Origin: Candidatus Saccharibacteria bacterium CPR2
GTDB lineage: Bacteria; Patescibacteriota; Saccharimonadia; Saccharimonadales; QWHN01
Length of the DNA: 38,798 nt
Assembly: GCA_021404905.1 (NCBI GenBank)
Contig: QWHN01000002.1
Coordinates: 143,582-182,379, forward strand
Direction of reading: 5' to 3'
Made by a program: the position numbers and the translations under genes. The notes below the pieces were generated by a model that did no database searches, had not been told where the DNA came from, and saw nothing but the letters and a program-made list of their open reading frames with translations. The number at the start of each line of letters is the position of its first letter. Position 1 is the first letter of the stretch. This document shows positions 1,384-21,632 of this stretch, piece by piece.

Positions 1384-2856
1384 CTAGCGTCTCCTTGCGT
1401 GATTTGAAGACTTCTTTATTTCATCGGCAACTGTTCTAGCTGAAGTAATAACAAAGGGTATGCTAACACCAGGCTTTGTGTCTTGGCCAACATAATATAG
1501 CCCGGAAACTTTTAGACTTTTATTGGGAGGCCGCATAACAACATTTTGGCTGGTTGTGTGAGCTAAACCAAAAGCGCTGGAATTATAAGCATTAAACCTG
1601 CTCTTATAGTATCCGGGAGGTTTGATCTGTTCGTAAACAATATCCAGCCTCTTGCCAACATGCCGCTCAATCTTTTCAATTACTGCCTGTCTTAATTCGC
1701 TTAAACGATTTATATCCATCTTCATTCCAGTAGGGAAGGGAAGTACCACTCTTAAACAACTGCATCCTTCGGGGGCAAGCGACTTGTCAGCTAGTGACGA
1801 TAAAGTTGCAAAAAATTGAATATTGTCAGTAGATTTTTTAGATTTCAACTTCAAGCAAAAATCATGCCAATTCTCATCAATAAACACATTGTGAACAGCC
1901 AAAGAGTCGCCCAAATTACCCTGGACACCAAAATTCATGATAATTGCCGATGAAGAATAAGCAGCACTTTTCCAATAGGTTTTAGGGTAGGTTCTATAAA
2001 TATATGGCACTAATTTTGTTTCTGTAAAAGCATAGTCCATCGCCGAAACAACGCTATCAGCAAAAAAGGTCTCTTCTTTTGTAGTTACACCTTTGATTTT
2101 TCCCTTATTTATGTTAATTTTACTCACATTTTCCGAGCATAAAATATCAACCCCTTGACTCAAAGCAAGTTTTTCCAGAGATTCAACGACTTTTTTAAAA
2201 CCTCCCACCGGATACCACAGCCCATCGTCAAAAAGTGAAGCCAGCCAAAATATGTGAAAAGCTGGCAACAGGACAGGATTAAGACCAAGTTGCATTGGTA
2301 TTGTCTCAAGTAAATCTTTAATTTCTTGGCTTTTTAGCGACTGCTTCAAAAAACCATGATATGAGCGAAGAAGGTTAAATTTTTTTAACTGGTTATACGC
2401 CCAGTTTCTTAATTGTATTGATTCGGATTGGTTACCATCATCTTGGAGTTTTGAGCTCATAATTTCATAAGCTCTTCTCGATTCAACAAGTAGTTTTGTT
2501 ACGTCTTCTGAGGAACCAGGCGACATTTTTTCAAATGTATTAAGGCTATCCTCAAAACCAGCTTTTACATCGCGGTAGCCTTGAGGAGTGATAACTCGAA
2601 ACATTGGGTCCAAACGAACCAAATCATAATAATTTTCTCTGTTTTCTCCCAGTTCTCTGAAAAGATCGTCGATAACTTGCCCCATCAAATACCATGTCGG
2701 GCCAAGATCAAAACTAAAACCATGAGCAGTGTGATAATCAGCCCGACCGCCAACATGCCTGTTTTTCTCGAGTATGGTAACTTCATTTCCCTGATTGGAT
2801 AACAAAGCAGCGGCTGCTAGCCCCGAAAATCCTCCGCCAATTACAGTAATTTTCAT
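1384..2856 (-). CDS. crtI: phytoene desaturase (CrtI)-family FAD oxidoreductase
   Basis: Start revised to ATG 2856 (MKITVIGGGFSGLAAA, Rossmann GxGxxG), ATGA overlap with tyrS stop. GGRA, FDLGPTW, YPVGG and C-terminal LYYVG...PG motifs. Substrate not proven. Confidence 0.7.
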   Translation of the reverse strand: MKITVIGGGFSGLAAAALLSNQGNEVTILEKNRHVGGRADYHTAHGFSFDLGPTWYLMGQVIDDLFRELGENRENYYDLVRLDPMFRVITPQGYRDVKAGFEDSLNTFEKMSPGSSEDVTKLLVESRRAYEIMSSKLQDDGNQSESIQLRNWAYNQLKKFNLLRSYHGFLKQSLKSQEIKDLLETIPMQLGLNPVLLPAFHIFWLASLFDDGLWYPVGGFKKVVESLEKLALSQGVDILCSENVSKININKGKIKGVTTKEETFFADSVVSAMDYAFTETKLVPYIYRTYPKTYWKSAAYSSSAIIMNFGVQGNLGDSLAVHNVFIDENWHDFCLKLKSKKSTDNIQFFATLSSLADKSLAPEGCSCLRVVLPFPTGMKMDINRLSELRQAVIEKIERHVGKRLDIVYEQIKPPGYYKSRFNAYNSSAFGLAHTTSQNVVMRPPNKSLKVSGLYYVGQDTKPGVSIPFVITSARTVADEIKKSSNHARRR

Positions 2857-4037
2857 CCTTGTTGAGTCAAACGCGCATAGCGCTTTTTGCCAATCTTTAG
2901 CTTTATATTCCAAGCCTTGATGTTTTTGTCATTAACAGATTCACCCGTATCAAACAATTTTACAGCGCCAGCCTCAACCAACCGGTTAAATTGGTTGCGA
3001 GAGGGAACAATCTTATTTTGCACTAACACTTCCCATAAAAATTGACCTTGCTTGTAGTTTATTTTCTCAAAATCACTATCCTGCAAGTTCTTACTCCTAA
3101 CCTGACGCTGAAAATCTTCTTTGGCTGACTCGGCCTTATTTTCTCCATGGATTAATTTTGTTATTTCAAACGCGGTTCGCTCCTTGGCTTCAAGCGGATC
3201 TCCCGAAACTATGTTCGCCACATTTCTAAGAGGGATTCGCGTCAACCGCGTTAACAGCACTTCCGTCATACTATCCGGCAACGCCATAATGTTCCTGAAT
3301 AATTCTGAAGGGGATACATTCAGGAAAACACCCGTTCCTTGGCTTTTAGACATTAATTTGCCACTTTCCGGATCTGCTATCAAATTAGTTGTAATTACAA
3401 ACTTTTCTTTGTTATTTAATCGTTTTTGCAAAATTCTGCCCGCCAAGGCATTGAATGTCTGGTCAGTACCGGCAAGCTCAACGTCAACATCCATGACCAC
3501 GCTGTCATAACCCTGCATCAGAGGGTAAAGAAACTCATGGAGATAGATCGGCTTGTCGTTTTTTAGGCGCTTTTGGAACATATCTCTTTCAGTCATCTGT
3601 TGAACTGTGAAATTTGTTGCCAAGCTGAGTATTTCTTCAAAATTTAGATTCGCCAGCCATTTAGAATTGTACATAATACGCACGGGATTATGCTTGTCCT
3701 GAAAATTTAGCAATGGTTTTATTTGCTTTAACCAAAGTTTAACATTTTTATCTACTTCTTCTTTGCTAAGCTGTGCCCTGGCGCTATCTTTATCTGTTGG
3801 ATCTCCAATTCGTGCGGTAAAATCACCAAATAACACGATTACTTCGTGTCCAAGACTGCGAAATTCTTCCAGCAAAATAAGATTTTGCGCATGGCCCAGG
3901 TGTAAAGCTTCTCCGGTTGCATCAAATCCTATATAAAACCTCAATTTTCTTGATTTTGCTGCTTCTTCAAAAGCTTTTCGGCTTGGAATTACCTCAGATA
4001 TCACGCCTCTGTCAAAAATTTCTTTTAGTGCCGGCAT
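2853..4037 (-). CDS. tyrS: tyrosine--tRNA ligase
   Basis: YIGFDAT, HLGH (HIGH), GDFTARIGDP, YPLMQGYD, GTDQTFN, LMSKS, C-terminal S4-like domain (IGKKR). Confidence 0.97.
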   Translation of the reverse strand: MPALKEIFDRGVISEVIPSRKAFEEAAKSRKLRFYIGFDATGEALHLGHAQNLILLEEFRSLGHEVIVLFGDFTARIGDPTDKDSARAQLSKEEVDKNVKLWLKQIKPLLNFQDKHNPVRIMYNSKWLANLNFEEILSLATNFTVQQMTERDMFQKRLKNDKPIYLHEFLYPLMQGYDSVVMDVDVELAGTDQTFNALAGRILQKRLNNKEKFVITTNLIADPESGKLMSKSQGTGVFLNVSPSELFRNIMALPDSMTEVLLTRLTRIPLRNVANIVSGDPLEAKERTAFEITKLIHGENKAESAKEDFQRQVRSKNLQDSDFEKINYKQGQFLWEVLVQNKIVPSRNQFNRLVEAGAVKLFDTGESVNDKNIKAWNIKLKIGKKRYARLTQQG

Positions 4038-4174
4038 TTTTAAATATTTTCTCCTTGTATCAATGATTGCTTGCCTCTTGAAATAATATATCTCATAAGC
4101 CCGACAAGCAAACTTACCTTTAATAAACCATACCCCATACTATAACAGATAGCATAAGCGTATTGACTAGATGC

Positions 4175-4203
4175 TTGATTTATTATATAGCATATAGTAT
4201 ATT
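4175..4203 (+). promoter_or_regulatory. putative sigma70 promoter for the LPNTA peptide-sortase-GT2 operon
   Basis: TTGATT-N17-TATATT upstream of a purine-rich SD region and ATG 4247. Confidence 0.45.
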
Positions 4204-4246
4204 ACTTTAGACAGATTAGTATAAGGGGTGGGAGAAGGGAAACGCC

Positions 4247-4444
4247 ATGAGCAATGGTTCAAATGAAACAGGTCAAGTTCTTGGCGCCGCTACAACCACT
4301 TTAGCTGGTGCCGCTGGAGTTGCTGTTTTGCCCAACACAGCTGGGTCAACATTACTACAGTTTATGAGCATTGCCGCAATCATACTTGGTAGCGCTTTGC
4401 TGATTACTGCTGTTGTGCGTAAATACGCCAAACACGTTAACTAA
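4247..4444 (+). CDS. 65-aa peptide with LPxTA sortase sorting signal
   Basis: GQVLGA...VLPNTAG, hydrophobic helix (LLQFMSIAAIILGSALLITAVV), basic tail RKYAK. Purine-rich SD region (GGAGAAGGG); 6 nt upstream of a sortase gene. Confidence 0.75.
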   Translation: MSNGSNETGQVLGAATTTLAGAAGVAVLPNTAGSTLLQFMSIAAIILGSALLITAVVRKYAKHVN

Positions 4445-4450
4445 ACTATC

Positions 4451-5038
4451 GTGAAGTTATCTAAATACAAAAAGTTTTTCATGCCTATACTAGGCATGGC
4501 ATTAGTAGCCGCGGGTATTCTGGGGCTATTTTTGCATATACAAAAAACTACCCCAATAGTTTTTGACTACGTTAACGACACGCCTGTTAATGCTGCTCAA
4601 ACAAGTTCGGAAGAAATCGAGTATGTCAGCGGCAAGCCCGTAAATATCTCCATACCTTCAATAGGAATGAATCTGGAAGTTAAGCCCGGGTATTATAACG
4701 CCGCGTCCCAAAGCTGGACTCTATCTGAAACCGCAGCTCATTATGCCACTATCACGAAGCCGGCTAACAATAAAGAAGGTAATACATTTATATACGGTCA
4801 TAATTTACCTAAGGTGTTTGAACCCCTTTCAAACCTAAAAGCTGGCGATATAGCCTATATCGGCACCGACAATGGTAAAACTTTTAAATACCGCTTAAAT
4901 AGAGTAACGGTGGCATCGCCAAGCGATACGGCTGTTCTTAGATATAGCGGCAGTCCCGTGCTGACAATCCAAACATGCTCCGGGGCATGGTATGAAAAAC
5001 GTTCTCTGTTTTGGTTTGAATATGTTGAGGTAACCTAA
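4451..5038 (+). CDS. sortase (class D/E/F-like)
   Basis: N-terminal TM anchor, ISIPSIG, catalytic triad YGHN ... TIQTC ... R. Confidence 0.9.
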   Translation: MKLSKYKKFFMPILGMALVAAGILGLFLHIQKTTPIVFDYVNDTPVNAAQTSSEEIEYVSGKPVNISIPSIGMNLEVKPGYYNAASQSWTLSETAAHYATITKPANNKEGNTFIYGHNLPKVFEPLSNLKAGDIAYIGTDNGKTFKYRLNRVTVASPSDTAVLRYSGSPVLTIQTCSGAWYEKRSLFWFEYVEVT

Positions 5039-5043
5039 AAACC

Positions 5044-6321
5044 ATGCAAGAGATTACTTTTTACACTTTTTTAATTATTGGGTTTATTTATTTTTCCCAC
5101 ATCGCGATATTCTGCATTGGCGGCAATATTTACGACATCGTCCAGACGCTAAACAAAAACAAGCTAAAAAATTCAAGGTATAAAAAATATCACCCTCAAG
5201 TAAGCGTGCTGATCCCAGCCTATAATGAAGAGCTCGTAATTGAAAGATGTTTGGAATCTGTTATAAAAAGTCAGCATCGAAAACTTCAAATTATTGCTAT
5301 TAACGATAATTCTAGTGATAACACCGCGCAAATTGTTCGAGAATTTATCCGAAATAACTCCAAGAAAAACATACGTCTTATATCCAGGCGTAAAAATCAG
5401 GGCAAAGCCATGGGGCTAAACTATGCTTTGAAGAAATACGCGACAGGCGAGCTAATAATGACTCTTGATGCTGATTCAATTCTGGAAAAACGGACTATAT
5501 CAAACGCGGTTAAATATTTTATCAATAATAATATTCACGGAATCGCGGCAAACGTACGTATTTTGCCTAGCAGGGGTTCTTTCTTAAACTTACTGCAACT
5601 TTTCGAGTATTTGGTGAGTTATAGAACAAAAAAATTCTATTCACTGACAAACTCTGAATTCATAATTGGCGGGGTAGGGTCGGTATACAGAAAAGATACG
5701 ATGAAAAATTTTGGATACTATGATGATTCTTCGGCTACTGAAGATATCGGGCTAAGTATGAAAATAGCTTCAAGCGGGACAAAAAGCATGAAGTTAAAAT
5801 ACGCGTCCAATGTAATTGCTTTCACCGAATCAGTATCAACAATCCCGCAGTTGCTCAAACAACGCTATCGCTGGAAATATGGAAATCTGCAAAATTTATT
5901 TAAATATTCCAGTAAATTTATAGCTAATCGAAAAAACCAGTCGAAAGTAATGCTTTTTTATCGCTTACCGATGTCTTATTTATCTGAGATATTGCTTTTA
6001 CTTGAGCCGTTTTTGCTTAGTTACGCGTTTTATTTGTCTTATAAGTCTGGAACTATTTCTGTATTTGTGAGCGCATATATACTGCTCAGCGTCTACAGTG
6101 CCTTTGTTTTGTGGAGCGACGAATATTTGTCTGTAGCCAATAAACGCAAACTAAGCCTTGCCGTGCCAGCCCTATATTTTTTATTTTATATAATGAGTTT
6201 TATACAAATTGCCGCTGCGATAAAATGCTTAGGCAAGATTCCATCTATAGCCACATCAAATTCCAGTAATAATACTTGGATATCCCCAAAAAGACTTGGG
6301 GCAAAAATATTGCTTAGATAG
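5044..6321 (+). CDS. processive membrane glycosyltransferase family 2 (IcaA/PgaC-like)
   Basis: IPAYNEE, NDNSSD, GKA.GLN, DAD, TED and QRYRW (D,D,D,QxxRW) motifs; N- and C-terminal TM helices. Confidence 0.9.
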   Translation: MQEITFYTFLIIGFIYFSHIAIFCIGGNIYDIVQTLNKNKLKNSRYKKYHPQVSVLIPAYNEELVIERCLESVIKSQHRKLQIIAINDNSSDNTAQIVREFIRNNSKKNIRLISRRKNQGKAMGLNYALKKYATGELIMTLDADSILEKRTISNAVKYFINNNIHGIAANVRILPSRGSFLNLLQLFEYLVSYRTKKFYSLTNSEFIIGGVGSVYRKDTMKNFGYYDDSSATEDIGLSMKIASSGTKSMKLKYASNVIAFTESVSTIPQLLKQRYRWKYGNLQNLFKYSSKFIANRKNQSKVMLFYRLPMSYLSEILLLLEPFLLSYAFYLSYKSGTISVFVSAYILLSVYSAFVLWSDEYLSVANKRKLSLAVPALYFLFYIMSFIQIAAAIKCLGKIPSIATSNSSNNTWISPKRLGAKILLR

Positions 6322-8014
6322 GCTGCCAACAAATATCGTCGATATAGGCAAGAGTGTTGGAGCCTTTTACAACTATTATTTGTAATTTTGCGCTTGTTAC
6401 CTGAGTGCTGGATGGAGTGTAACTAAACTCAACATTTTTTATGCCTTTGCCGACCGACGAGCCAATATATTTTCCTGATATCCATTGGCCATTAACATCA
6501 TATTCATCAACGTAAAATCCAATTGATGAATTATTGCGTAGCCTAGCCACATTCAAAAATGCAGAAATTTTATAAGTTTGAGCAGGGCTGACATTAACTT
6601 TTGGCGAGAATAAATGCACGTTACGGTCTTTGCGCGAAGTTAGTTTAATTGAGTTTTTAGGTTCACTGGGAGCGCCGTTATTATTGACGTCAAGCAATAT
6701 TTTTTGCGAAGCATCGGTTGACCAGCCATTACTTAAACCCTGCTCAAAATTACCATTCACAAGCAAATTCTGAGGCTCCGGATTGGGGTCGCCAGGACCT
6801 TTGGGACCAACACAATACAGTTGCACATTATCCAGAAGAAGTACATTGCTGCTCGAGGCAGTTAGTATGAATTGCAGACTAATGCTCGCAACATTCACGG
6901 AAGTCGGCACATAAACGTAGTTAGCGTTTTTTGCCAGCACGTTATCAACAAAGCTAATTGGCTTATACTGTCCGCTGATCCAGTTTCCATTTTGGTCGTA
7001 TTCGTCAATATACCAAGCAGCTTCGCTTGTAATCTGGGTATTGTCCAAATTCACGTAACTCTTTAGTACATATTGTTTTTGGTCCGATACATTTATTTTT
7101 TCTGAAAACAGGTGAACATTTTTCTCTGGCGTTGACACAATTTTGGCTGAACTTTGAGATTCAGGAACACTGCCGTTATTGTTTTGATCTATCGCTAAGT
7201 TTGGGTTGTCCGTCGTCCAGCCGCTAAGACCATTGGTAAATGAAGAGTTATTAACCATATTTACTGTATCTTTTATTAACCCGTCGCTAACGTTGACCAC
7301 GTCAAGACCCTGAGTTTTTACGTAAGAAGCAATTTGCCGCAAATCCTCAGTGCTATATTCATAATCATTGCTGTCCGGGCTTGGATTGTCGGCAATATTA
7401 TGAAACACCAGTACAAGCCAATAGTTATTGGTTTTAGCCTGGTCGATATATTGCTTAACCTGAGAAACGCTTACGCCAACCTGGACTTGCTGGACTTTAA
7501 TTAAATAATCGTTGTAAGGCCAGGTGTTGTAACCCGTATCATGAAACGGTCGATGAGAAGTGTAGTGACGCGCTATTGCTTCAATAACACGATTGTCATA
7601 ATCGCCATATGGAGTGGCAAAGGATTTTGGATTAAACCCTTTGGATTCCAGGATGCTTTTGCTGGTGGCAACTTCGTTCTCAATTTCTAGGTCACTAAGT
7701 TGGCTCATTAATGGGTGAGTAACGCTATGGGCGCCGATCTCCCAGCCATATTGGCTGGCAAGCTGGCTGGTTTGGCTCCAGGTTAAATACTCGCTTTGGC
7801 CAACAAATGAAGTTGTTATATATGCGGTTCCAGTATAGCCAAACTCTGAAAGTACCGGAGCAGCTTCAAGTAATGTACTCGAATATCCATCATCAAACGT
7901 AAAACTAACTTTTGGATAAGCTGGCTGAGCATCTGCACGGACAGAACTTGAAAGCAGAGCCCAGGTTAAAGCTGCTAATATTACTGAGAAAAATACTGTG
8001 GTTAATCTACGCAC
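6314..8014 (-). CDS. secreted polysaccharide deacetylase (CE4/NodB) with two CBM4/9-like domains
   Basis: Signal peptide (VRA|DA), TFDDG, HSVTH, TPYG and LVFH motifs; two ~150-aa internal repeats (N..F..GL..W.TD ... NVHLFS.K.NVS ... Y.DEYD.NG.WISG.Y) joined by a G/P linker. Confidence 0.88.
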   Translation of the reverse strand: MRRLTTVFFSVILAALTWALLSSSVRADAQPAYPKVSFTFDDGYSSTLLEAAPVLSEFGYTGTAYITTSFVGQSEYLTWSQTSQLASQYGWEIGAHSVTHPLMSQLSDLEIENEVATSKSILESKGFNPKSFATPYGDYDNRVIEAIARHYTSHRPFHDTGYNTWPYNDYLIKVQQVQVGVSVSQVKQYIDQAKTNNYWLVLVFHNIADNPSPDSNDYEYSTEDLRQIASYVKTQGLDVVNVSDGLIKDTVNMVNNSSFTNGLSGWTTDNPNLAIDQNNNGSVPESQSSAKIVSTPEKNVHLFSEKINVSDQKQYVLKSYVNLDNTQITSEAAWYIDEYDQNGNWISGQYKPISFVDNVLAKNANYVYVPTSVNVASISLQFILTASSSNVLLLDNVQLYCVGPKGPGDPNPEPQNLLVNGNFEQGLSNGWSTDASQKILLDVNNNGAPSEPKNSIKLTSRKDRNVHLFSPKVNVSPAQTYKISAFLNVARLRNNSSIGFYVDEYDVNGQWISGKYIGSSVGKGIKNVEFSYTPSSTQVTSAKLQIIVVKGSNTLAYIDDICWQPI

Positions 8015-8094
8015 ATACTAAATCCATTAATTCTGCGTATATTGTGCGTTATTTTTGCTAAAATGTAAAATTCTAGTGTTTTATTTAAAGCTTC

Positions 8095-8766
8095 TTATTC
8101 GCCTAATGCGCTGTAACAAGCCTGTTGTGCGCCGGGATCAGTAATTTGTTCACAGGTTTGTCGCTGTAACTCCATGTTGCTTTGAGCAGATTGCTGTAAC
8201 TGTTGTTGCTGAGCTGTAAGATCGGTAAATTCAACGTCAGCAGGTGGAGTAAAGAATGATTCATCGACACTCCATTTATCGCAATTAAACTCATAGCTCT
8301 GATCTGTATTTACCGGCTCGTTAGTTTGGGCTGAATCTCCAGTTTCTGCGGTTGTACTTTCTCCAGTCGCAGGAATTTTAAACTTGCTGCCTTGTTTTTC
8401 GCTATCTATCCATGTGTATGCGTAAGTGCCATCGTTTATCATGCTGCTTTTAATCTCACCGCTAGTGGCATCTTGAACCCTGAATTCGCCTCGCATTTTT
8501 GCTCCGGCAACATAAACTGTACCTGAAGATACGCTCCCAGTAGATTGATCGGTGTGCGTAAAACTACACTGCATATTTTCACCAAGCTTTGCCAGCTCAT
8601 CAAGCGAGGTATTAAGGCTTTTCTTTGTGCTTGCTACTTCCGTAGAACTGCTGCTTTCTTGAGTTGAACTATTGCTTGAATCCTTTTTTGAACCCAGAAC
8701 AAAATATCCGCCAACCCCAAGCAAAATTAAAACCGCAACAACTGCTAGCCAAATTTTTTTATTCAT
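8095..8766 (-). CDS. membrane-anchored extracytoplasmic hypothetical protein
   Basis: ATG 8766 after a GGGGG SD-like run; N-terminal TM, Ser-rich linker, beta-rich domain with four Cys and F.PP..V.F.D. Confidence 0.7.
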   Translation of the reverse strand: MNKKIWLAVVAVLILLGVGGYFVLGSKKDSSNSSTQESSSSTEVASTKKSLNTSLDELAKLGENMQCSFTHTDQSTGSVSSGTVYVAGAKMRGEFRVQDATSGEIKSSMINDGTYAYTWIDSEKQGSKFKIPATGESTTAETGDSAQTNEPVNTDQSYEFNCDKWSVDESFFTPPADVEFTDLTAQQQQLQQSAQSNMELQRQTCEQITDPGAQQACYSALGE

Positions 8767-8825
8767 ATAAACCCCCATGATTAGACAATAGCTTCCACTA
8801 ATTGTCTGATTTAATTAACCCTTAG

Positions 8826-9662
8826 TCAAGTCGAAAGTCGGTCATTTTCTGATTTTAAATAACTCTCTATTAATTGGCGATTCGGGCTTTCCTCGTCACT
8901 TTCAACTTCAATATATTTATGAAGCTGAATGATTAGAAAGCTAACTACTATCACGCCCAGTAATAGCATCAAGGTTTGCGATCCGGCAATAATTTTTGCT
9001 TCGGATCGATGAATACTGGGAATAATATCGCTCACCGCGATATAAATGAAAAATCCCGCAACCAACCCCAAAATGAAATCAAGTTGTATTGAATATGAAT
9101 TTCCAGCTTGAAAAAACAAGACCGCTCCGACGGTTGTCGCTAGCGCACTGAAAATATTTATCATAACAACATTCTTTCGGCTCACTCTTTTTTTGAGCAA
9201 AAGCCCAAAATCGCCTATTTCCTGTGGTATCTCATGCGCAGCGACAGCAATAGTGGCAACTACTCCAGTGGGTATGCTAACCAGAAAAGCAGCGCCTATG
9301 GCTATGCCATCAATAAAATTGTGTATGGTATCTCCAATCACAATTAATGATGCGCTGGGGTCGGCTTTATCTGACTCGTGTTCATGGTGGTGATGGAACC
9401 ATTTAAGAAACTTTTCAAGTAGAAAGAACCCGATTATCCCAAGCAGGGCACCAGCCAAACCTCTCTCAAAATCACCAGAATGTCCCGATTCCGGTAACAA
9501 ATCTATAAAAGCTGCCGCCAAAAGCGCTCCCGCGGCAAACGGTGTTGCATATTTAGCCAAATTTTTCGCCACAGTCTTATTGGATAAAAGTGTGACACCG
9601 CCGATAAGAGAAAACACACCTCCGATTAACGAAAACAGTATTACTTGAGTTAATGTTGCCAT
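8826..9662 (-). CDS. ZIP-family zinc/metal transporter
   Basis: FAAGALL, His-rich loop WFHHHHEH, DTIHNFIDG, HEIPQEIGDF. Confidence 0.93.
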   Translation of the reverse strand: MATLTQVILFSLIGGVFSLIGGVTLLSNKTVAKNLAKYATPFAAGALLAAAFIDLLPESGHSGDFERGLAGALLGIIGFFLLEKFLKWFHHHHEHESDKADPSASLIVIGDTIHNFIDGIAIGAAFLVSIPTGVVATIAVAAHEIPQEIGDFGLLLKKRVSRKNVVMINIFSALATTVGAVLFFQAGNSYSIQLDFILGLVAGFFIYIAVSDIIPSIHRSEAKIIAGSQTLMLLLGVIVVSFLIIQLHKYIEVESDEESPNRQLIESYLKSENDRLST

Positions 9663-9708: not shown

Positions 9709-9727
9709 ATTGCAAATTATTTGCGAT
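9709..9727. promoter_or_regulatory. Fur/Zur-type operator (9-1-9 inverted repeat)
   Basis: ATTGCAAAT-T-ATTTGCGAT, one mismatched pair, between divergent ZIP and Fur-family genes. Confidence 0.7.
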
Positions 9728-9732
9728 TATCT

Positions 9733-10173
9733 ATGAAAATGCAAAATGTTCAGTTTGAAGAATCAGTTAAAAACCAATTAAAAATTTCGGGCTTGAGTGT
9801 AACAACCCCCAGAATGAATATTGCAAAAATACTTTTTCTGGAAAATAAGCCAATGAGCATCCGCGAGATCATCAGAAAAACCGGCAAAACAGCTCATTTT
9901 GTAACTATTTATCGAACGATTGATACGCTTGTAAAAGCCAAGGTGCTAAACCAAATTAATATTGGTTTTAAAAATAAGTATGAACTAAGCGATATGTTCC
10001 GGCCTCATCACCATCACGCGATTTGCGAAGTTTGCGGCCAGTCCACAGAAATTCAAAATAAAAAAATAGAAGCAACGTTAAATAGCATCACTGAAGATGC
10101 CGGGTTAAAACCTACTCGTCACCAATTCGAACTCTATGGCATATGTTCAAAATGTATAAATGAAAAACAATAA
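9733..10173 (+). CDS. Fur-family regulator, probably Zur
   Basis: TTPR, TIYRTI helix, HHHHAICEVCG and CSKC; divergent from a ZIP transporter. Start moved to ATG 9733. Confidence 0.88.
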   Translation: MKMQNVQFEESVKNQLKISGLSVTTPRMNIAKILFLENKPMSIREIIRKTGKTAHFVTIYRTIDTLVKAKVLNQINIGFKNKYELSDMFRPHHHHAICEVCGQSTEIQNKKIEATLNSITEDAGLKPTRHQFELYGICSKCINEKQ

Positions 10174-17160: not shown

Positions 17161-18567
17161 TTACTGGTTGTCTTTAAGTTTTGATTTTGTGCCGCCACTA
17201 AAAGCAAGAGGGTGTATGCGCCTGTCGTTTGATAAAACCCCCCAGTTATGAACCTCTTTGCCCTCGCCAGATCGAATTATGTCTGCTCTAAAACAGGCTC
17301 TGGTATTAGCGGGAGGGTTCTGAAGCGCATAATTAATTTCCCAGTCTTCATATTGAGAGTCGAATCCATGCCAACCCCAACCATTATTTCTGCGCCTTAT
17401 TGCGATTCCACGATTATCAAGAGAATCCCAGGTGTAATCTATATCGCGCATTTTTTCATTTATCGGTTGTGTTTCTGGATCACGCAAACTTAATTCTCTG
17501 ATGCAATCAAGGCGTGCTACCCATTCAACACGGTCAGTAGCCAGATCAGTTGATAATTCCAGATCATCTGTCACTTCTTTGATTTGCTCCAGCGCCCATA
17601 TTTCATCTTCACTCAATCCTTCCGGCTCAAAATACTCTATAAATTTCTCGGCAAATGCTGATTGCCATTCAGTCGCTCCAATACTTTTGCCGCTATCTAG
17701 TCTCAGTGTAGACCTAAGCGACAAATCACCGGCCACCAGACTTGCTGCCATCAGAGGATTTTCTAAAAATAAATCAGAGAAGTCCTTTCTCGACTCAATG
17801 GCCTTCATTAAAAGCGAGTTCGTTGCATGTTGCATTCTAATGGTCCACGGAGATAGAGAGGCATCACCGCATACTTGATGTACTCGATACATACCAAATT
17901 CACCATTACTATTATCATTACAGATAAGAGGCTTTTTCATACCTGTTCGAGAAGAACTCACGAGCTCTTTTGTAACAGATAATCTTGGAGATACAACATA
18001 CCCAAATTCACCATTTGCACTCATAATGCCGCCCGTTCCCGCGTAAACTGCCCTGGTAGCATTGAATGAACCCATAAGCGCGATCGTATTTTCATCAGAC
18101 TTATCTATCCGAGCGCGTGAGAATATATTTTCGTGATAACCCCAGGAATTTCCTAATTGATCAGTGGTTCGTTTATTCGCGTAGTATTTATCAATAACTC
18201 CTGCTTCTCTCAGCCTACGAAGCATCCCCATAATGAATTTCTCTGAAGACAATTCGTATTTTACTAGTTGCTCTGGACTAGCTGCTTCTGGAGTGCAATA
18301 TTCAGGTGTTCTATTTTGGTCAAAATAGAACCTTGCACCATTGCTCATGAACCCATAAGCATTTGAATCTGTTATTCCTTGATCGCTAAGCACATCATTT
18401 CGCCAATTTGACCACACGTTTACTATTTCAGCAGAAGCAGGTAAATTTGTATCATCATTTAAGGAAGTAGATGTAATTGAGTTGCCATTAAGCTCGGCAT
18501 GGATACTAAAACCAATCTCTGCCCCAAAAACTCTTTCAACCTGTCTAGAATCTCTCTCTGTTTCCAT
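17161..18567 (-). CDS. Pup-ligase/deamidase (PafA/Dop) family homolog, divergent
   Basis: RVFGAE, NGARFYFD...PEYCTPE, D..GNSWGYHEN, R.HQVCGDASLSPW, VEWVAR, D..W..L...G, PPANTRA.FR, late Trp. Start ATG 18567. Confidence 0.85.
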   Translation of the reverse strand: METERDSRQVERVFGAEIGFSIHAELNGNSITSTSLNDDTNLPASAEIVNVWSNWRNDVLSDQGITDSNAYGFMSNGARFYFDQNRTPEYCTPEAASPEQLVKYELSSEKFIMGMLRRLREAGVIDKYYANKRTTDQLGNSWGYHENIFSRARIDKSDENTIALMGSFNATRAVYAGTGGIMSANGEFGYVVSPRLSVTKELVSSSRTGMKKPLICNDNSNGEFGMYRVHQVCGDASLSPWTIRMQHATNSLLMKAIESRKDFSDLFLENPLMAASLVAGDLSLRSTLRLDSGKSIGATEWQSAFAEKFIEYFEPEGLSEDEIWALEQIKEVTDDLELSTDLATDRVEWVARLDCIRELSLRDPETQPINEKMRDIDYTWDSLDNRGIAIRRRNNGWGWHGFDSQYEDWEINYALQNPPANTRACFRADIIRSGEGKEVHNWGVLSNDRRIHPLAFSGGTKSKLKDNQ

Positions 18568-18678
18568 AAGTTGGCGATAATGAGTAATATACAACTTACA
18601 GAAAAATTAGACAATCATAAGCTTTATTGTATGAATTTGCTTACAAAAAGCCCTGAGTAGTGATACATTTTTAAAGTC

Positions 18679-20333: not shown

Positions 20334-20426
20334 ATGTCTATAGCTTGACCTTATCCTTAAAATTATTATACACCTATTTGCAAGAGCGTTAATGCGCGAT
20401 TTGTGCTAATAGCATATAATGAAAAC

Positions 20427-21632
20427 ATGCGCGGAAATATGCGCTTTGGGTGGATCTTCGCAATATCGTTTTTTGTTGCTTTATTTGTTGCGGCAACTTT
20501 ATATCTTGCCAAAAACAATAGCAGCCCAATTGAACGGTCCAACCCTGAACTTGAAAAGAAGTTATCTGAGCCAAAAACACCAACTTCAATATCTACAAGA
20601 TTATTAGTTGGCGGCGATGTTTTTTGGGGAAGACAAACAGAAATCTGGGCAAACGAATCTGCCGAACCAATAAAATTTCCGTTTCAAGGACTAAACACTT
20701 TTGAAAGAGAAAAATATGACGCCTGGATTGGCACGATGGAGTGCCCAATTACGTCAACTGCCGTACCCTTTGAGAGACAAAAGAACGAATTGAAGTTCAA
20801 TTGTCTGCCCGAATATTTGGAAGAAGCCAAAAAGTGGTTCAATGCTTTTAACACTGCTAGTAATCATACTGATAACATGCAAGAGGTGGACGGGTTTGAT
20901 CAAACATTAAAGAATCTTGAAAAACATGACATCCAGCATTTCGGCCACTTCGACGCGGGCGTAAACGACGAAATTTGCGAAGTTTTGTCTTTCCCCGCAC
21001 GCGCAGAACCAGTTGACAACGAAAACCAAAATAGTGATGTTTACTTGCCGGTCGCTTTTTGCGGATATAACAATGTCTATCGCTTACCAACCGAACAAGA
21101 GCTGGACGCGATCACTCCGTATTCCAAGCAGTTTTTTACCATCGCTACGCCACAACAAGGCGAGGAATACAAGCCGGCGGCCGATGAACTTAAGATAGAA
21201 TATTTTCGCAAAATGGTAGACAAAGGCGCCGATTCTATAATTGGCGGTCAGCCCCATTGGGTGCAAAATACCGAGGTTTATAAGGAAAAATTGATAGTTT
21301 ACTCCGTAGGAAATTTTATGTTCGATCAGCGTTGGAGCCCGGACGTAATGAGGGGTATAGGCGTCGATATAACCTTAACAGCCGTCTACGATGAGAACGT
21401 CCAGGCTTGGCTGGATATTGCCGAACAATGCAAAAACCATAACGATAGCTGTTTAGAAAAAGCGAAGAATAAGGGATTAGAAAAAATTGGTTTTAGAGTC
21501 AAATACGACATAGTAGCCGTTGACGCAACTGGTAGATTTAGCGTAAAAGGCGACAAACAACTCCTGGATGCTCTTAAACAACGCGCTAATTGGGCAAGTA
21601 CATCCGCAAATTTACAAAAATCATCCCCTTAA
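20427..21632 (+). CDS. CapA-family metallophosphoesterase-like protein, membrane anchored
   Basis: N-terminal TM, GGD, ME.P, SNHTDN, QQG.EY, GQPHWVQ, YSVGNF.FDQ. Start 20427 or 20439. Confidence 0.85.
   Translation: MRGNMRFGWIFAISFFVALFVAATLYLAKNNSSPIERSNPELEKKLSEPKTPTSISTRLLVGGDVFWGRQTEIWANESAEPIKFPFQGLNTFEREKYDAWIGTMECPITSTAVPFERQKNELKFNCLPEYLEEAKKWFNAFNTASNHTDNMQEVDGFDQTLKNLEKHDIQHFGHFDAGVNDEICEVLSFPARAEPVDNENQNSDVYLPVAFCGYNNVYRLPTEQELDAITPYSKQFFTIATPQQGEEYKPAADELKIEYFRKMVDKGADSIIGGQPHWVQNTEVYKEKLIVYSVGNFMFDQRWSPDVMRGIGVDITLTAVYDENVQAWLDIAEQCKNHNDSCLEKAKNKGLEKIGFRVKYDIVAVDATGRFSVKGDKQLLDALKQRANWASTSANLQKSSP

What the first reader, a model, noticed from the sequence alone, without database searches (positions are those of the whole stretch)
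4247..8014. Candidate new surface system: minimal LPNTA peptide + sortase + processive GT2 + secreted deacetylase-CBM
Seen: three co-oriented genes separated by 6 and 5 nt (65-aa peptide, sortase, QxxRW-type GT2) and a convergent CE4 deacetylase with two CBM-like repeats overlapping the GT2 stop by 8 nt. Known: IcaA/PgaC-type GT2 plus CE4 deacetylase make partly deacetylated exopolysaccharide, and sortases ligate LPxT(G/A) substrates to amine nucleophiles. The ica and pga loci I know do not include a sortase. Inference: either the ~31-aa Thr/Ser/Ala/Gly peptide is a glycan carrier anchored by the sortase, or deacetylation creates the free amines onto which the sortase ligates the peptide, giving a peptide-decorated polysaccharide coat possibly used in host attachment.
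Basis: partly seen in the sequence, partly recalled or inferred. Interest (0 to 1): 0.85.

Follow-up and report, generated by a model that had tools for sequence, protein, structure and literature searches.

The report
Minimal sortase peptide beside glycan synthase
Many uncultured Saccharibacteria keep together a tiny sorting-signal-only peptide, its own sortase, a membrane sugar-polymer synthase and a secreted deacetylase, which suggests an undescribed way of building a cell coat.

Summary
The four genes lie exactly as described in an 829-kb Saccharimonadales genome from bioreactor or sludge samples.

Among 80 species-level relatives of this sortase, 71 had enough flank to judge. In 52 of those 71, a 51-71-aa leaderless LPxTG peptide lies upstream and an orthologous GT2 starts within -70 to +8 nt of the sortase stop. 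A CE4 gene lies within 6 kb in 49 of 54 such loci. Flanking genes differ between loci.

The peptide ORF is under purifying selection (pN/pS 0-0.5) and has 245 database clusters. It amounts to a bare CPR-type sorting signal: an uncharged Gly/Ala/Val/Thr tail, LPxTG, a membrane helix and a basic end.

The GT2 folds like hyaluronan and cellulose synthases. A GT2-peptide complex gets only weak support (score 0.51, best control 0.01).

The module is real and I found no description of it. The chemistry linking peptide and glycan is inferred. LPNTA is a rare variant of LPNTG (1 of 60 against 43 of 60).

The parts
4175..4203 (+). Promoter-like site (TTGATT-17-TATATT) upstream of the peptide gene. Weak lead only.
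   Evidence: 9 of 12 matches. The region has 13 such sites against 14.6 expected in shuffles, so this is not above chance.
4247..4444 (+). 65-aa leaderless minimal sortase substrate, i.e. a stand-alone sorting signal. It has a 27-aa Gly/Ala/Thr tail, LPNTA, G, a transmembrane helix and a basic tail (RKYAKHVN).
   Evidence: ORF and Shine-Dalgarno-like stretch. L, P and T are invariant in 44 of 44 family members; 60 family members; pN/pS 0-0.5; 245 database clusters; no Pfam family.
4328..4342 (+). LPNTA motif (residues 28-32). The predicted sortase cleavage is after Thr31.
   Evidence: The cleavage site is inferred from established sortase chemistry and was not tested.
4451..5038 (+). Small membrane-anchored sortase (195 aa) that fits none of the curated sortase classes. 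Catalytic residues are H117, C176 and R184.
   Evidence: PF04203, 71.2 bits; only the generic TIGR01076 model passes, and every class model is far below its cut-off; the triad is invariant in 10 of 10; it is the second of two sortases in this genome.
5044..6321 (+). Membrane-integrated processive GT2 synthase (425 aa), with D,D,D motifs, TED and QRYRW.
   Evidence: AlphaFold2 model with pLDDT 91.6 and pTM 0.91; best full-length fold matches are Chlorella virus hyaluronan synthase (TM by query up to 0.72), PcManGT and BcsA.
7931..8014 (-). N-terminal signal-peptide-like segment of the CE4 protein (residues 1-28, ending VRADA).
   Evidence: Read directly from the translation. No signal-peptide predictor was available.
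7280..7936 (-). CE4 (NodB-type) deacetylase or esterase domain, residues about 27-245.
   Evidence: PF01522, 70.1 bits; best NCBIfam hit is HfsH, 72.8 bits against a cut-off of 400, covering residues 27-245; best solved relatives are the acetyl-xylan esterases 7ax7 and 2cc0.
6800..7267 (-). CBM-like repeat 1 (residues 250-405).
   Evidence: 39% identical to repeat 2, E 1e-33; no Pfam hit when scanned alone.
6317..6787 (-). CBM-like repeat 2 (residues 410-566), matching CBM_4_9.
   Evidence: PF02018, 48.8 bits, residues 415-547..

Best explanation
This is a conserved four-gene surface-polymer module of environmental Saccharimonadales.

(1) The 65-aa ORF is a sorting signal without protein cargo. 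It has an uncharged 27-aa Gly/Ala/Thr tail, LPNTA, one membrane helix and a basic end. It has no signal peptide, so it should insert with the short tail outside and the basic end inside (positive-inside rule).

(2) The adjacent small sortase is dedicated to it. It should cut after Thr31 and pass the 31-residue tail to an amine, most likely on a peptidoglycan precursor as other sortases do.

(3) The GT2, which starts 5 nt after the sortase stop, is a hyaluronan/cellulose/PgaC-type membrane synthase. It polymerises a sugar nucleotide and exports the chain through its own channel. The product is probably HexNAc-containing.

(4) The secreted CE4 enzyme holds on to that chain with its two CBM repeats and removes acetyl groups.

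(5) Because peptide, sortase and synthase are inherited as a unit, I infer that the wall-bound peptide and the polymer are assembled together. My preferred version is that the peptide tethers or organises the polymer at the wall.

Shown here: gene content, conservation, coupling, selection on the ORF, catalytic motifs and the synthase fold. Inferred: topology, cleavage, nucleophile, sugar identity and any peptide-glycan contact.
For: Anatomy.

Conservation: in the same order, 10 of 40 other families carry an orthologous sortase at E <= 1e-27. Those loci show the small LPxTG ORF upstream and the GT2 downstream, often with a 4-nt overlap, while the flanking genes are unrelated.

Among 80 species-level loci, 71 were judgeable. 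Fifty-one have a mini-peptide plus an adjacent GT2 orthologue. One more (L043) joins them once its internal MY start is used. Five have a mini-peptide plus a convergent distant GT2. Thirteen have a long signal-peptide-bearing substrate and no orthologous GT2. One has neither.

A CE4-family gene lies within 6 kb in 49 of 54 loci. At >= 140 bits it is present in 40 of 51 mini/orthologue loci and in 0 of the 20 others.

Other gene orders occur in distant families: peptide then GT2 in G408, and peptide, GT2, sortase in G383. GT2 homologues are fused to CE4 in a single 884-aa protein.

Peptide family of 60 members: the part before the motif is 11-31 aa. Its net charge has median 0, against +4 for the last 12 residues. 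L, P and T are invariant in 44 of 44. pN/pS is 0-0.5 in 28 pairs. Gene callers predicted 245 protein clusters of 28-114 aa in public data.

The sortase triad is invariant. This genome also has a second sortase in a 361-aa frame, and longer frames of about 390-490 aa recur among the weaker sortase matches across the order, so the small sortase is an accessory enzyme.

The GT2 motifs are invariant and the fold is synthase-like.

The GT2-peptide complex scored 0.51, 0.55 and 0.51 against a best control of 0.01. The tool's verdict was 'weak support'. Partner pLDDT was at least 56 and contact agreement at least 39%. The mark was reached by 58 of 80 solved complexes and 2 of 110 mismatched pairs, but scores of 0.60 or under were more often wrong than right.
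Against: No experiment or expression evidence exists for the peptide. The nucleophile, the sugar and any peptide-glycan link are unknown.

The GT2 is far below the PgaC/IcaA equivalog cut-off (170 against 422 bits). The best solved relatives of the CE4 domain are O-acetyl esterases of xylan, and GH10 genes sit in 10 of 54 loci. The polymer may therefore not be PNAG-like, and the CE4 could in principle act on a foreign glycan.

The tail resembles the 'VLGA..T' segment that precedes LPxTG in giant surface proteins of other Patescibacteria. It may simply be part of an extended recognition signal rather than a functional cargo.

The 80 loci are the best 80 of 112 matches to an alignment built from mini-type sortases. 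They are related to one another, so the counts are not independent and are biased toward this type.

HTH-MurA-like, SHMT and MurB genes recur nearby in 27, 23 and 16 of 54 loci. Part of the conservation is therefore plain synteny among relatives.
Confidence: 0.55

Rival explanations
1. Sortase ligates the peptide onto the polymer itself. CE4 frees sugar amines, and these act as the nucleophile that resolves the sortase-peptide thioester. The result would be a peptide-decorated polysaccharide.
For: CE4 co-occurs with the triad in 49 of 54 loci. GT2 and CE4 are fused in relatives. In vitro sortase ligation to amino sugars has been reported; I recall this from the literature and did not retrieve it.
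Against: This would sever the peptide from its membrane anchor without fixing the polymer to the cell, so the benefit is unclear. The CE4 domain's nearest solved relatives are acetyl-xylan (O-acetyl) esterases, so N-deacetylation is not established. I found no in vivo precedent in four searches.
Confidence: 0.08
2. The small protein is mainly a membrane accessory subunit rather than cargo. It would work like IcaD or PgaD for the synthase, or SafA for the sortase. It binds GT2 or sortase through its helix, and sortase cleavage at LPxTG switches the complex on or off.
For: The GT2-peptide complex prediction is above all controls (0.51 against 0.01), though only 'weak support'. The helix has a nearly invariant Gly and the basic tail is conserved. 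SafA is a 52-aa membrane protein genetically linked to a sortase (PMC9282373, passages read). G408 has the peptide directly before GT2 with no sortase between them.
Against: L, P and T of the motif are invariant in 44 of 44, which points to catalysis at that site. No FPW motif occurs in 0 of 60 peptides. The gene lies upstream of the sortase, whereas safA lies downstream. The same sortase clade pairs with ordinary long LPxTG proteins in 13 of 71 loci.
Confidence: 0.12
3. The two halves are mechanistically independent surface functions: a wall-anchored short hydrophobic peptide, and an exopolysaccharide with its deacetylase. They are kept together only for co-regulation or by shared descent.
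For: No direct evidence of physical coupling exists. Other cell-envelope genes (MurA-like, MurB) also recur nearby. The loci are phylogenetically related.
Against: Sortase and GT2 starts and stops are within -70 to +8 nt in the 52 loci. The triad reappears in other gene orders in distant families. The mini form of the substrate tracks the orthologous GT2: 52 with it, and 5 with a distant convergent GT2. None of the 13 long substrates has the orthologue.
Confidence: 0.2
4. The 65-aa ORF is not a gene. It would be either a chance frame or the decayed 3' end of a former long surface protein.
For: It is short, matches no Pfam or NCBIfam family, and resembles the C-terminus of long LPxTG proteins.
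Against: The start is conserved: MY lies at or near the start in 49 of 60. pN/pS is 0-0.5. There are 245 database clusters of similar length. A Shine-Dalgarno-like stretch precedes the ATG. The ORF is kept across at least 10 families of the order.
Confidence: 0.03

Closest known systems
LPXTG/sortase cell-wall sorting with a dedicated sortase-substrate gene pair (as in class B, C and D sortase operons; recalled knowledge)
   Same: It has a sortase domain with the His-Cys-Arg triad. The substrate gene lies next to the enzyme gene. The C-terminal signal is tripartite: motif, helix, basic tail.
   Different: The substrate has no signal peptide and no folded cargo, only 11-31 residues before the motif. 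The sortase fits none of the curated classes. Its gene is coupled to a polysaccharide synthase gene.
Ica (IcaADBC) and Pga (PgaABCD) poly-N-acetylglucosamine systems
   Same: A processive membrane GT2 is paired with a CE4 deacetylase and a small membrane protein in one locus. PgaC_IcaA is the best NCBIfam hit over the full length of the GT2.
   Different: The score is 170 bits against a cut-off of 422, so the GT2 is not an equivalog. No IcaC, PgaA or PgaD homologue was seen in the locus. The small membrane protein carries LPxTG. A sortase is present. The CE4 carries CBM_4_9 repeats.
PEP-CTERM/exosortase (EpsH) sorting linked to exopolysaccharide loci (Haft et al. 2006, PMC1569441; abstract read) and the XrtG-associated GT2 TIGR03111
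   Same: A C-terminal motif, helix and basic-cluster signal is processed by a putative transpeptidase whose genes go with EPS genes. TIGR03111 is the second-best NCBIfam hit of the GT2 (109 bits).
   Different: Here the enzyme is a true sortase, not an exosortase. The organism has no outer membrane; that is recalled knowledge of Saccharibacteria. PEP-CTERM proteins generally have signal peptides and occur many per genome. The GT2 is below the TIGR03111 cut-off of 364 bits.
Class I hyaluronan synthase, BcsA and chitin synthase membrane synthase-translocases
   Same: The fold matches (Foldseek E 6e-18 to 5e-13, TM by query up to 0.72). The D,D,D, TED and QxxRW motifs are present.
   Different: Sequence identity is only 15-21%. 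The protein is smaller, at 425 aa. The product is unknown. There is no PilZ or c-di-GMP module. None of these synthases is known to be coupled to a sortase.
SafA, the 52-aa membrane protein next to actinobacterial housekeeping sortase (PMC9282373; passages read)
   Same: It is a small single-helix membrane protein genetically linked to a sortase.
   Different: SafA lies downstream of srtA and acts through an FPW motif. Here the gene is upstream, FPW is found in 0 of 60 peptides, and LPxT is invariant.
Streptomyces chaplins with the CslA glycan, and MatAB PNAG
   Same: Short hydrophobic surface peptides, some of them sortase-anchored, co-operate with a GT2-made and deacetylated glycan at the cell surface.
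   Different: Chaplins have signal peptides and a chaplin domain. Their genes are not in one operon with the synthase. There is no sequence relation to these peptides.

Membership tests
Sortase (PF04203 / TIGR01076) | Domain model scores above its curated cut-off | tested here: met
   PF04203: 71.2 bits against 26.6. TIGR01076: 42.9 bits against 39.35.
Sortase (PF04203 / TIGR01076) | Catalytic His, Cys (TLxTC-like) and Arg are conserved | tested here: met
   H117, C176 (QTCSG) and R184 are invariant in 10 of 10 orthologues.
Sortase classes A-F, SrtD and GN (NCBIfam class models) | Class model scores above its cut-off | tested here: not met
   SrtD 44.6 against 140. Class D 38.7 against 165. 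Class C 38.4 against 160. Class F 26.5 against 166. Class E 26.2 against 160. Class GN 23.0 against 158. No class A or B model appeared in the hit list.
LPXTG cell-wall sorting-signal substrate | LPXTG-type motif followed by a hydrophobic helix and a basic tail at the C-terminus | tested here: met
   The window peptide has LPNTA then G, and L, P and T are invariant in 44 of 44. Net charge of the last 12 residues is +2 to +5 in 60 of 60.
LPXTG cell-wall sorting-signal substrate | N-terminal signal peptide and a passenger domain | tested here: not met
   Only 11-31 residues precede the motif, with net charge -1 to +2. No signal-peptide predictor was available, so this was judged from length and sequence.
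LPXTG cell-wall sorting-signal substrate | Cleavage after Thr and amide linkage to the wall | not testable with these tools
   Needs biochemistry or mass spectrometry.
PgaC/IcaA PNAG synthase (TIGR03937) | Equivalog model scores above its cut-off | tested here: not met
   169.9 bits against 422.3, although aligned over residues 13-417 of 425.
PgaC/IcaA PNAG synthase (TIGR03937) | Processive GT2 motifs: D, DxD, TED, QxxRW | tested here: met
   Invariant in 43 of 43.
PgaC/IcaA PNAG synthase (TIGR03937) | Beta-1,6-GlcNAc product | not testable with these tools
   No sequence rule for linkage or sugar was applied.
Ica/Pga-type locus | CE4 deacetylase partner encoded alongside | tested here: met
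   A CE4-family gene lies within 6 kb in 49 of 54 loci. GT2-CE4 fusions exist in relatives.
Ica/Pga-type locus | Small membrane partner that binds the synthase (IcaD or PgaD) | tested here: inconclusive
   The GT2-peptide prediction scored 0.51 against a best control of 0.01, 'weak support'. No sequence likeness to IcaD or PgaD was tested.
CE4 (PF01522) | NodB homology domain scores above its cut-off | tested here: met
   70.1 bits against 23.1.
CE4 (PF01522) | N-deacetylase rather than O-acetyl esterase | not testable with these tools
   Best NCBIfam hit is HfsH, 72.8 against 400. Best solved relatives are acetyl-xylan esterases.
SafA (sortase-associated factor) | FPW motif, and gene immediately downstream of the sortase | tested here: not met
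   FPW is in 0 of 60 peptides. The gene lies upstream of the sortase.
PEP-CTERM/exosortase | PEP motif and an EpsH-family exosortase | not tested
   The motif here is LPxTG and the enzyme is a sortase. The genome was not searched for exosortase. This system is cited only as an analogue.

The most novel reading that the evidence does not exclude
The peptide is a sorting signal whose cargo is the polysaccharide. The synthase starts or attaches its chain on a hydroxyl of the short tail: Tyr lies within the first six residues in 54 of 60 peptides, and Ser, Thr or Tyr occur in 60 of 60. The tail leaves the cell with the glycan, which would explain why no signal peptide is needed. The coupled sortase then joins the glycan-bearing tail to peptidoglycan. 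This would be a protein-primed, sortase-anchored capsule. It would be a previously unknown way to fix a synthase-made polymer covalently to a Gram-positive-type wall.
Probability: 0.18. Interest if true: 0.92.

Novelty: new variant of a known kind. Interest (0 to 1): 0.72.

Why it matters
Sortases are known to carry folded, Sec-exported proteins. A widespread family of leaderless substrates of about 57 aa, consisting of little more than the sorting signal, is not part of the textbook picture. These peptides have their own sortase, and its gene is joined to a polysaccharide synthase gene.

This gives a concrete, testable handle on two questions. One is how ultra-small Saccharibacteria build their envelope. 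The other is how a synthase-dependent polymer might be tied to a cell wall. Polymers made by single membrane synthases in Gram-positive bacteria are, to my recollection, lipid-linked or released rather than wall-linked.

The peptide and sortase pair could also be of use as a very small natural tagging system.

Tried and rejected
Expression. RNA-library contigs were laid on window 4100-8100. Only low-depth pieces appeared: 4802-5047 (sortase end), 5595-5910 (GT2) and 6841-7081 (CE4, with 4 differences). The tool warns that DNA can be present in such libraries. No contig covered the peptide gene, and this says nothing either way.

Promoters and terminators. The scan gave no more sites than shuffled sequence.

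Atlas search with the peptide. It returned clusters of roughly 60-aa hypothetical proteins from Saccharimonadota at scores of 0.87-0.90. These are a lead only. The structure hits were single helices and carry no meaning.

Chance or decay of the ORF. Rejected.

SafA-like role. Rejected as the main reading.

Glycocin or peptide-glycosyltransferase idea. SunS is only a weak hit at 25 bits. I set it aside because the GT2 has the membrane synthase fold and QRYRW.

Pilus-like polymerisation through a tail Lys. Lys is absent from many tails and is replaced by Arg in three.

Literature. Five searches found no description of a sortase, mini-LPXTG and GT2 module in Saccharibacteria or Patescibacteria. 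What I saw of each paper:
- PMC13278184: abstract and one passage. It concerns Pam pili and is unrelated.
- PMC6744442: passages. It reports a sortase family in more than half of CPR genomes.
- PMC11623550: a reference-list hit only.
- PMC9282373: passages.
- PMC1569441: abstract.
Supplementary files were not opened. Supplementary Data 1 of PMC6744442 may list sortase-adjacent families.

Genome G032 is unpublished. It enters only the tally of 33 of 41 genomes with any sortase match, and no other claim rests on it.

Full report
WHAT IS THERE. The window is contig C8:143582-182379 of an 829-kb, 9-contig genome that is 98.9% complete. Relatives of its sortase found in public genomes are all labelled Candidatus Saccharibacteria or Saccharimonadales, or are unlabelled MAGs. 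The stretch itself occurs in bioreactor, sludge, wastewater and soil metagenomes.

One search confirms the four ORFs and their spacing:
- peptide, 4247-4444 (+)
- sortase, 4451-5038 (+), starting 6 nt after the peptide stop
- GT2, 5044-6321 (+), starting 5 nt after the sortase stop
- CE4 protein, 6314-8014 (-), convergent, with an 8-nt overlap of the two stops

Pfam and NCBIfam name a sortase domain, a family-2 glycosyltransferase and a CE4 domain with CBM_4_9. For the GT2, the best curated model is PgaC_IcaA, aligned over almost its whole length but at 170 bits against a cut-off of 422. The second CBM-like repeat is real (39% identity). The peptide matches no family.

THE PEPTIDE. It reads MSNGSNETGQVLGAATTTLAGAAGVAV-LPNTA-G, then about 21 hydrophobic residues, then RKYAKHVN. 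This is a classical tripartite sorting signal preceded by only 27 residues, with no signal peptide.

In 60 family members gathered from related loci:
- The part before the motif is 11-31 aa (median 19).
- It is made mostly of Gly, Ala, Val and Thr.
- Its net charge is -1 to +2, while the last 12 residues carry +2 to +5. By the positive-inside rule (established knowledge), the tail should lie outside and the end inside.
- L, P and T of the motif are invariant in 44 of 44 aligned members.
- The motif is LPNTG in 43 of 60, and LPNTA only in the window.
- Where the fifth residue is not Gly (S, H or A; 4 of 60), a Gly follows.
- MY lies at or near the start in 49 of 60.
- Tyr lies within the first six residues in 54 of 60, though not in the window's peptide.

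The ORF is under purifying selection: pN/pS is 0-0.5 in 28 equal-length pairs, with 547 synonymous against 286 non-synonymous differences. The pairs are not independent. A profile search found 245 clusters of 28-114 aa in public protein sets. Where they are named at all, they are called 'hypothetical' or 'LPXTG cell wall anchor'.

The tail resembles the '(E/Q)VLGA(S/T)T' segment that precedes LPxTG in giant surface proteins of another Patescibacteria family. The peptide therefore looks like a sorting signal that has lost, or never had, a protein passenger.

THE SORTASE. H117, C176 (QTCSG) and R184 are invariant. Only the generic sortase model passes, and every class model is far below its cut-off. 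The best solved relatives by profile are class C and class A enzymes at E 4e-8 to 1e-7.

The genome has a second sortase in a 361-aa frame. Sortase matches in longer frames, mostly about 390-490 aa, recur among the weaker hits across the order. The 195-aa enzyme is therefore an accessory one.

CONSERVATION. Orthologues of the small sortase (E <= 1e-27) occur in 10 of 40 other families of the order. Around them I found the small LPxTG ORF upstream and the GT2 downstream, often overlapping the sortase stop by 4 nt, with a CE4-CBM gene nearby. The genes further out do not match the window's.

A scan of one genome per species found 112 relatives, of which the best 80 were kept. One of them had no sortase ORF by my BLAST, and 71 had at least 700 nt upstream and 1300 nt downstream. 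Those 71 divide as follows:

| Substrate upstream | GT2 next to the sortase | Loci |
|---|---|---|
| Mini-peptide | Orthologue (>= 250 bits; start -70 to +8 nt from the sortase stop, by longest ORF) | 51 |
| Mini-peptide (L043, once its internal MY start is used) | Orthologue | 1 |
| Mini-peptide | Distant GT2 on the opposite strand, just downstream | 5 |
| Long (170-445 aa), with signal peptide and LPxT[GSA] | None (9) or only a distant GT2 (4) | 13 |
| None | None | 1 |

A CE4 hit of at least 140 bits was present in 40 of the 51 mini/orthologue loci and in 0 of the other 20. By family clustering within 6 kb, CE4 is in 49 of 54 loci, the window included.

On a sortase tree, the enzymes with long substrates fall into two clusters. 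That tree used the quick method with SH-aLRT support only and is rooted at the midpoint.

In an even sample of 401 genomes of the phylum, short frames matching the peptide profile were found in G000, two genomes of the same order, and G408 of another family. In G408 an 80-aa LPVTG peptide lies directly before a GT2 orthologue, with no sortase between them. In G383, a third family, the order is peptide (LPYAS), then GT2 interrupted by two TAA codons, then sortase. Other GT2 homologues in the phylum stand alone or are fused to a CE4 domain in one 884-aa protein.

Caveats. The loci are related to each other. They were chosen by likeness to mini-type sortases. HTH-MurA-like, SHMT and MurB genes also recur nearby in 27, 23 and 16 of 54 loci, so part of the pattern is ordinary synteny.

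THE SYNTHASE AND THE ESTERASE. D88, D92, D142, D144, T232-E233-D234 and Q273-R274-x-R276-W277 are invariant in 43 of 43 orthologues. The AlphaFold2 model is confident (pLDDT 91.6, pTM 0.91). Foldseek places it with Chlorella virus and Xenopus hyaluronan synthases (TM by query up to 0.72), the archaeal PcManGT, BcsA and Chs1. These are membrane synthases that also export their product. By sequence alone the best solved relative is 6yv7 (E 9.5e-17).

The CE4 protein has a signal-peptide-like start (read). Its best curated match is the holdfast deacetylase HfsH, well below cut-off. Its best solved relatives are acetyl-xylan esterases (E 1.5e-8 and 5.6e-8). GH10 genes sit in 10 of 54 loci. The sugar and the kind of acetyl group removed are therefore open.

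DOES THE PEPTIDE TOUCH THE SYNTHASE? One complex prediction was run, with GT2 and peptide each given as an alignment. Scores were 0.51, 0.55 and 0.51, and the best of three controls was 0.01. Partner pLDDT was at least 56 and contact agreement at least 39%. The tool's verdict is 'weak support'. The mark was reached by 58 of 80 solved complexes and 2 of 110 mismatched pairs, but passes at 0.60 or under are more often wrong than right unless the guess was likely beforehand. I treat it as a hint.

MECHANISM. Shown here:
- a dedicated gene triad plus CE4
- intact catalytic residues
- a coding, conserved, leaderless sorting-signal peptide
- a synthase-type fold

Inferred from established sortase and synthase biology:
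- The peptide inserts with its tail outside.
- The sortase cuts after Thr31 and hands the tail to an amine, most likely on a wall precursor.
- The GT2 makes and exports a beta-linked polymer.
- The CE4-CBM binds and deacetylates that polymer.

Inferred from gene coupling alone: the wall-bound tail and the polymer are assembled together.

The boldest reading that the data allow is that the glycan is the peptide's cargo. It would be attached to a tail hydroxyl, exported with the tail, and then fixed to the wall by the sortase. This would account for the missing signal peptide, the tiny size and the sortase-synthase coupling. No evidence bears on it directly.

COMPARISON AND NOVELTY. The parts are known kinds: a sortase and its substrate, an Ica/Pga-like synthase with a CE4. 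A sorting transpeptidase tied to EPS genes has an analogue in PEP-CTERM/exosortase (PMC1569441, abstract). A small membrane protein tied to a sortase has one in SafA (PMC9282373, passages). The module fails the defining tests for each of these families (see Membership tests).

Five literature searches found no description of it. The library lacks most subscription journals, and supplements were closed. I rate it a new variant of known kinds, with a modest chance of being something categorically new.

TOOLS THAT WERE CLOSED.

Noticed in passing
window 17161-18594 (-): A Pup-ligase family protein (PF03136, 195 bits) in a Saccharimonadales genome. Pupylation-type enzymes are best known from Actinobacteria (recalled).
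   Followed up: no
window 20403-21632 (+): A PGA_cap (CapA-like) protein (PF09587, 113.6 bits). This is another possible surface-polymer gene, 12 kb from the module.
   Followed up: no
window 8826-9662 (-) and 9721-10173 (+): A divergent pair of a ZIP zinc transporter and a Fur-family regulator. It looks like a Zur-controlled uptake unit.
   Followed up: no
window 8095-8778 (-): A 227-aa protein with an N-terminal membrane anchor and a Ser/Thr/Gln-rich region, directly upstream of the CE4 gene on the same strand. It has no convincing family and does not recur in the related loci.
   Followed up: partly
L149:22-2673 (+) (genome G047); also L152 and L155: GT2 homologues fused to a CE4 domain in a single protein of about 880-915 aa. 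In L149, PF01522 scores 117.8 bits and PF00535 scores 120 bits. This is a Rosetta-stone link between the two activities.
   Followed up: partly
L148 951-3073 (+) (genome G383): The same triad in another order: a 63-aa LPYAS peptide, a GT2, then a sortase. The GT2 is interrupted by two in-frame TAA codons. It could be a broken gene, a sequencing error or recoding; this was not resolved.
   Followed up: partly
L125 180-1734 (-) (genome G408): An 80-aa peptide with three VLGA repeats and LPVTG, directly upstream of a GT2 orthologue with no sortase between them. Next to it lies a collagen-like GPQ-repeat protein.
   Followed up: partly
L036:3285-4805 (+) and 26 other loci: A MurA-like enzyme (EPSP_synthase family) fused to an N-terminal HTH domain recurs beside the module in 27 of 54 loci. 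MurB recurs in 16 and SHMT in 23. An HTH-MurA fusion is unusual in itself.
   Followed up: no
L116:1411-1710 (+) and L117:1411-1695 (-): Giant surface proteins (frames of 1448 and 2461 aa) of another Patescibacteria family end in EEGEVLGA(T/S)T..LPxTG. This suggests an extended, lineage-specific sorting signal upstream of LPxTG.
   Followed up: partly
G000 C5:336683-338269 (-) and C5:353641-354120 (+): These are the only other ORFs in the window's genome with a plausible LPxTG-type signal by my simple screen: 528 aa with LPNTG and 159 aa with LPETG. Both have unusually long tails after the helix.
   Followed up: no
window 1384-2913 (-) and 2853-4037 (-): The longest ORFs of the flavin amine-oxidase-like gene and the tyrosyl-tRNA synthetase gene overlap by 61 nt. 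This is probably an over-long TTG start call for the downstream gene.
   Followed up: no
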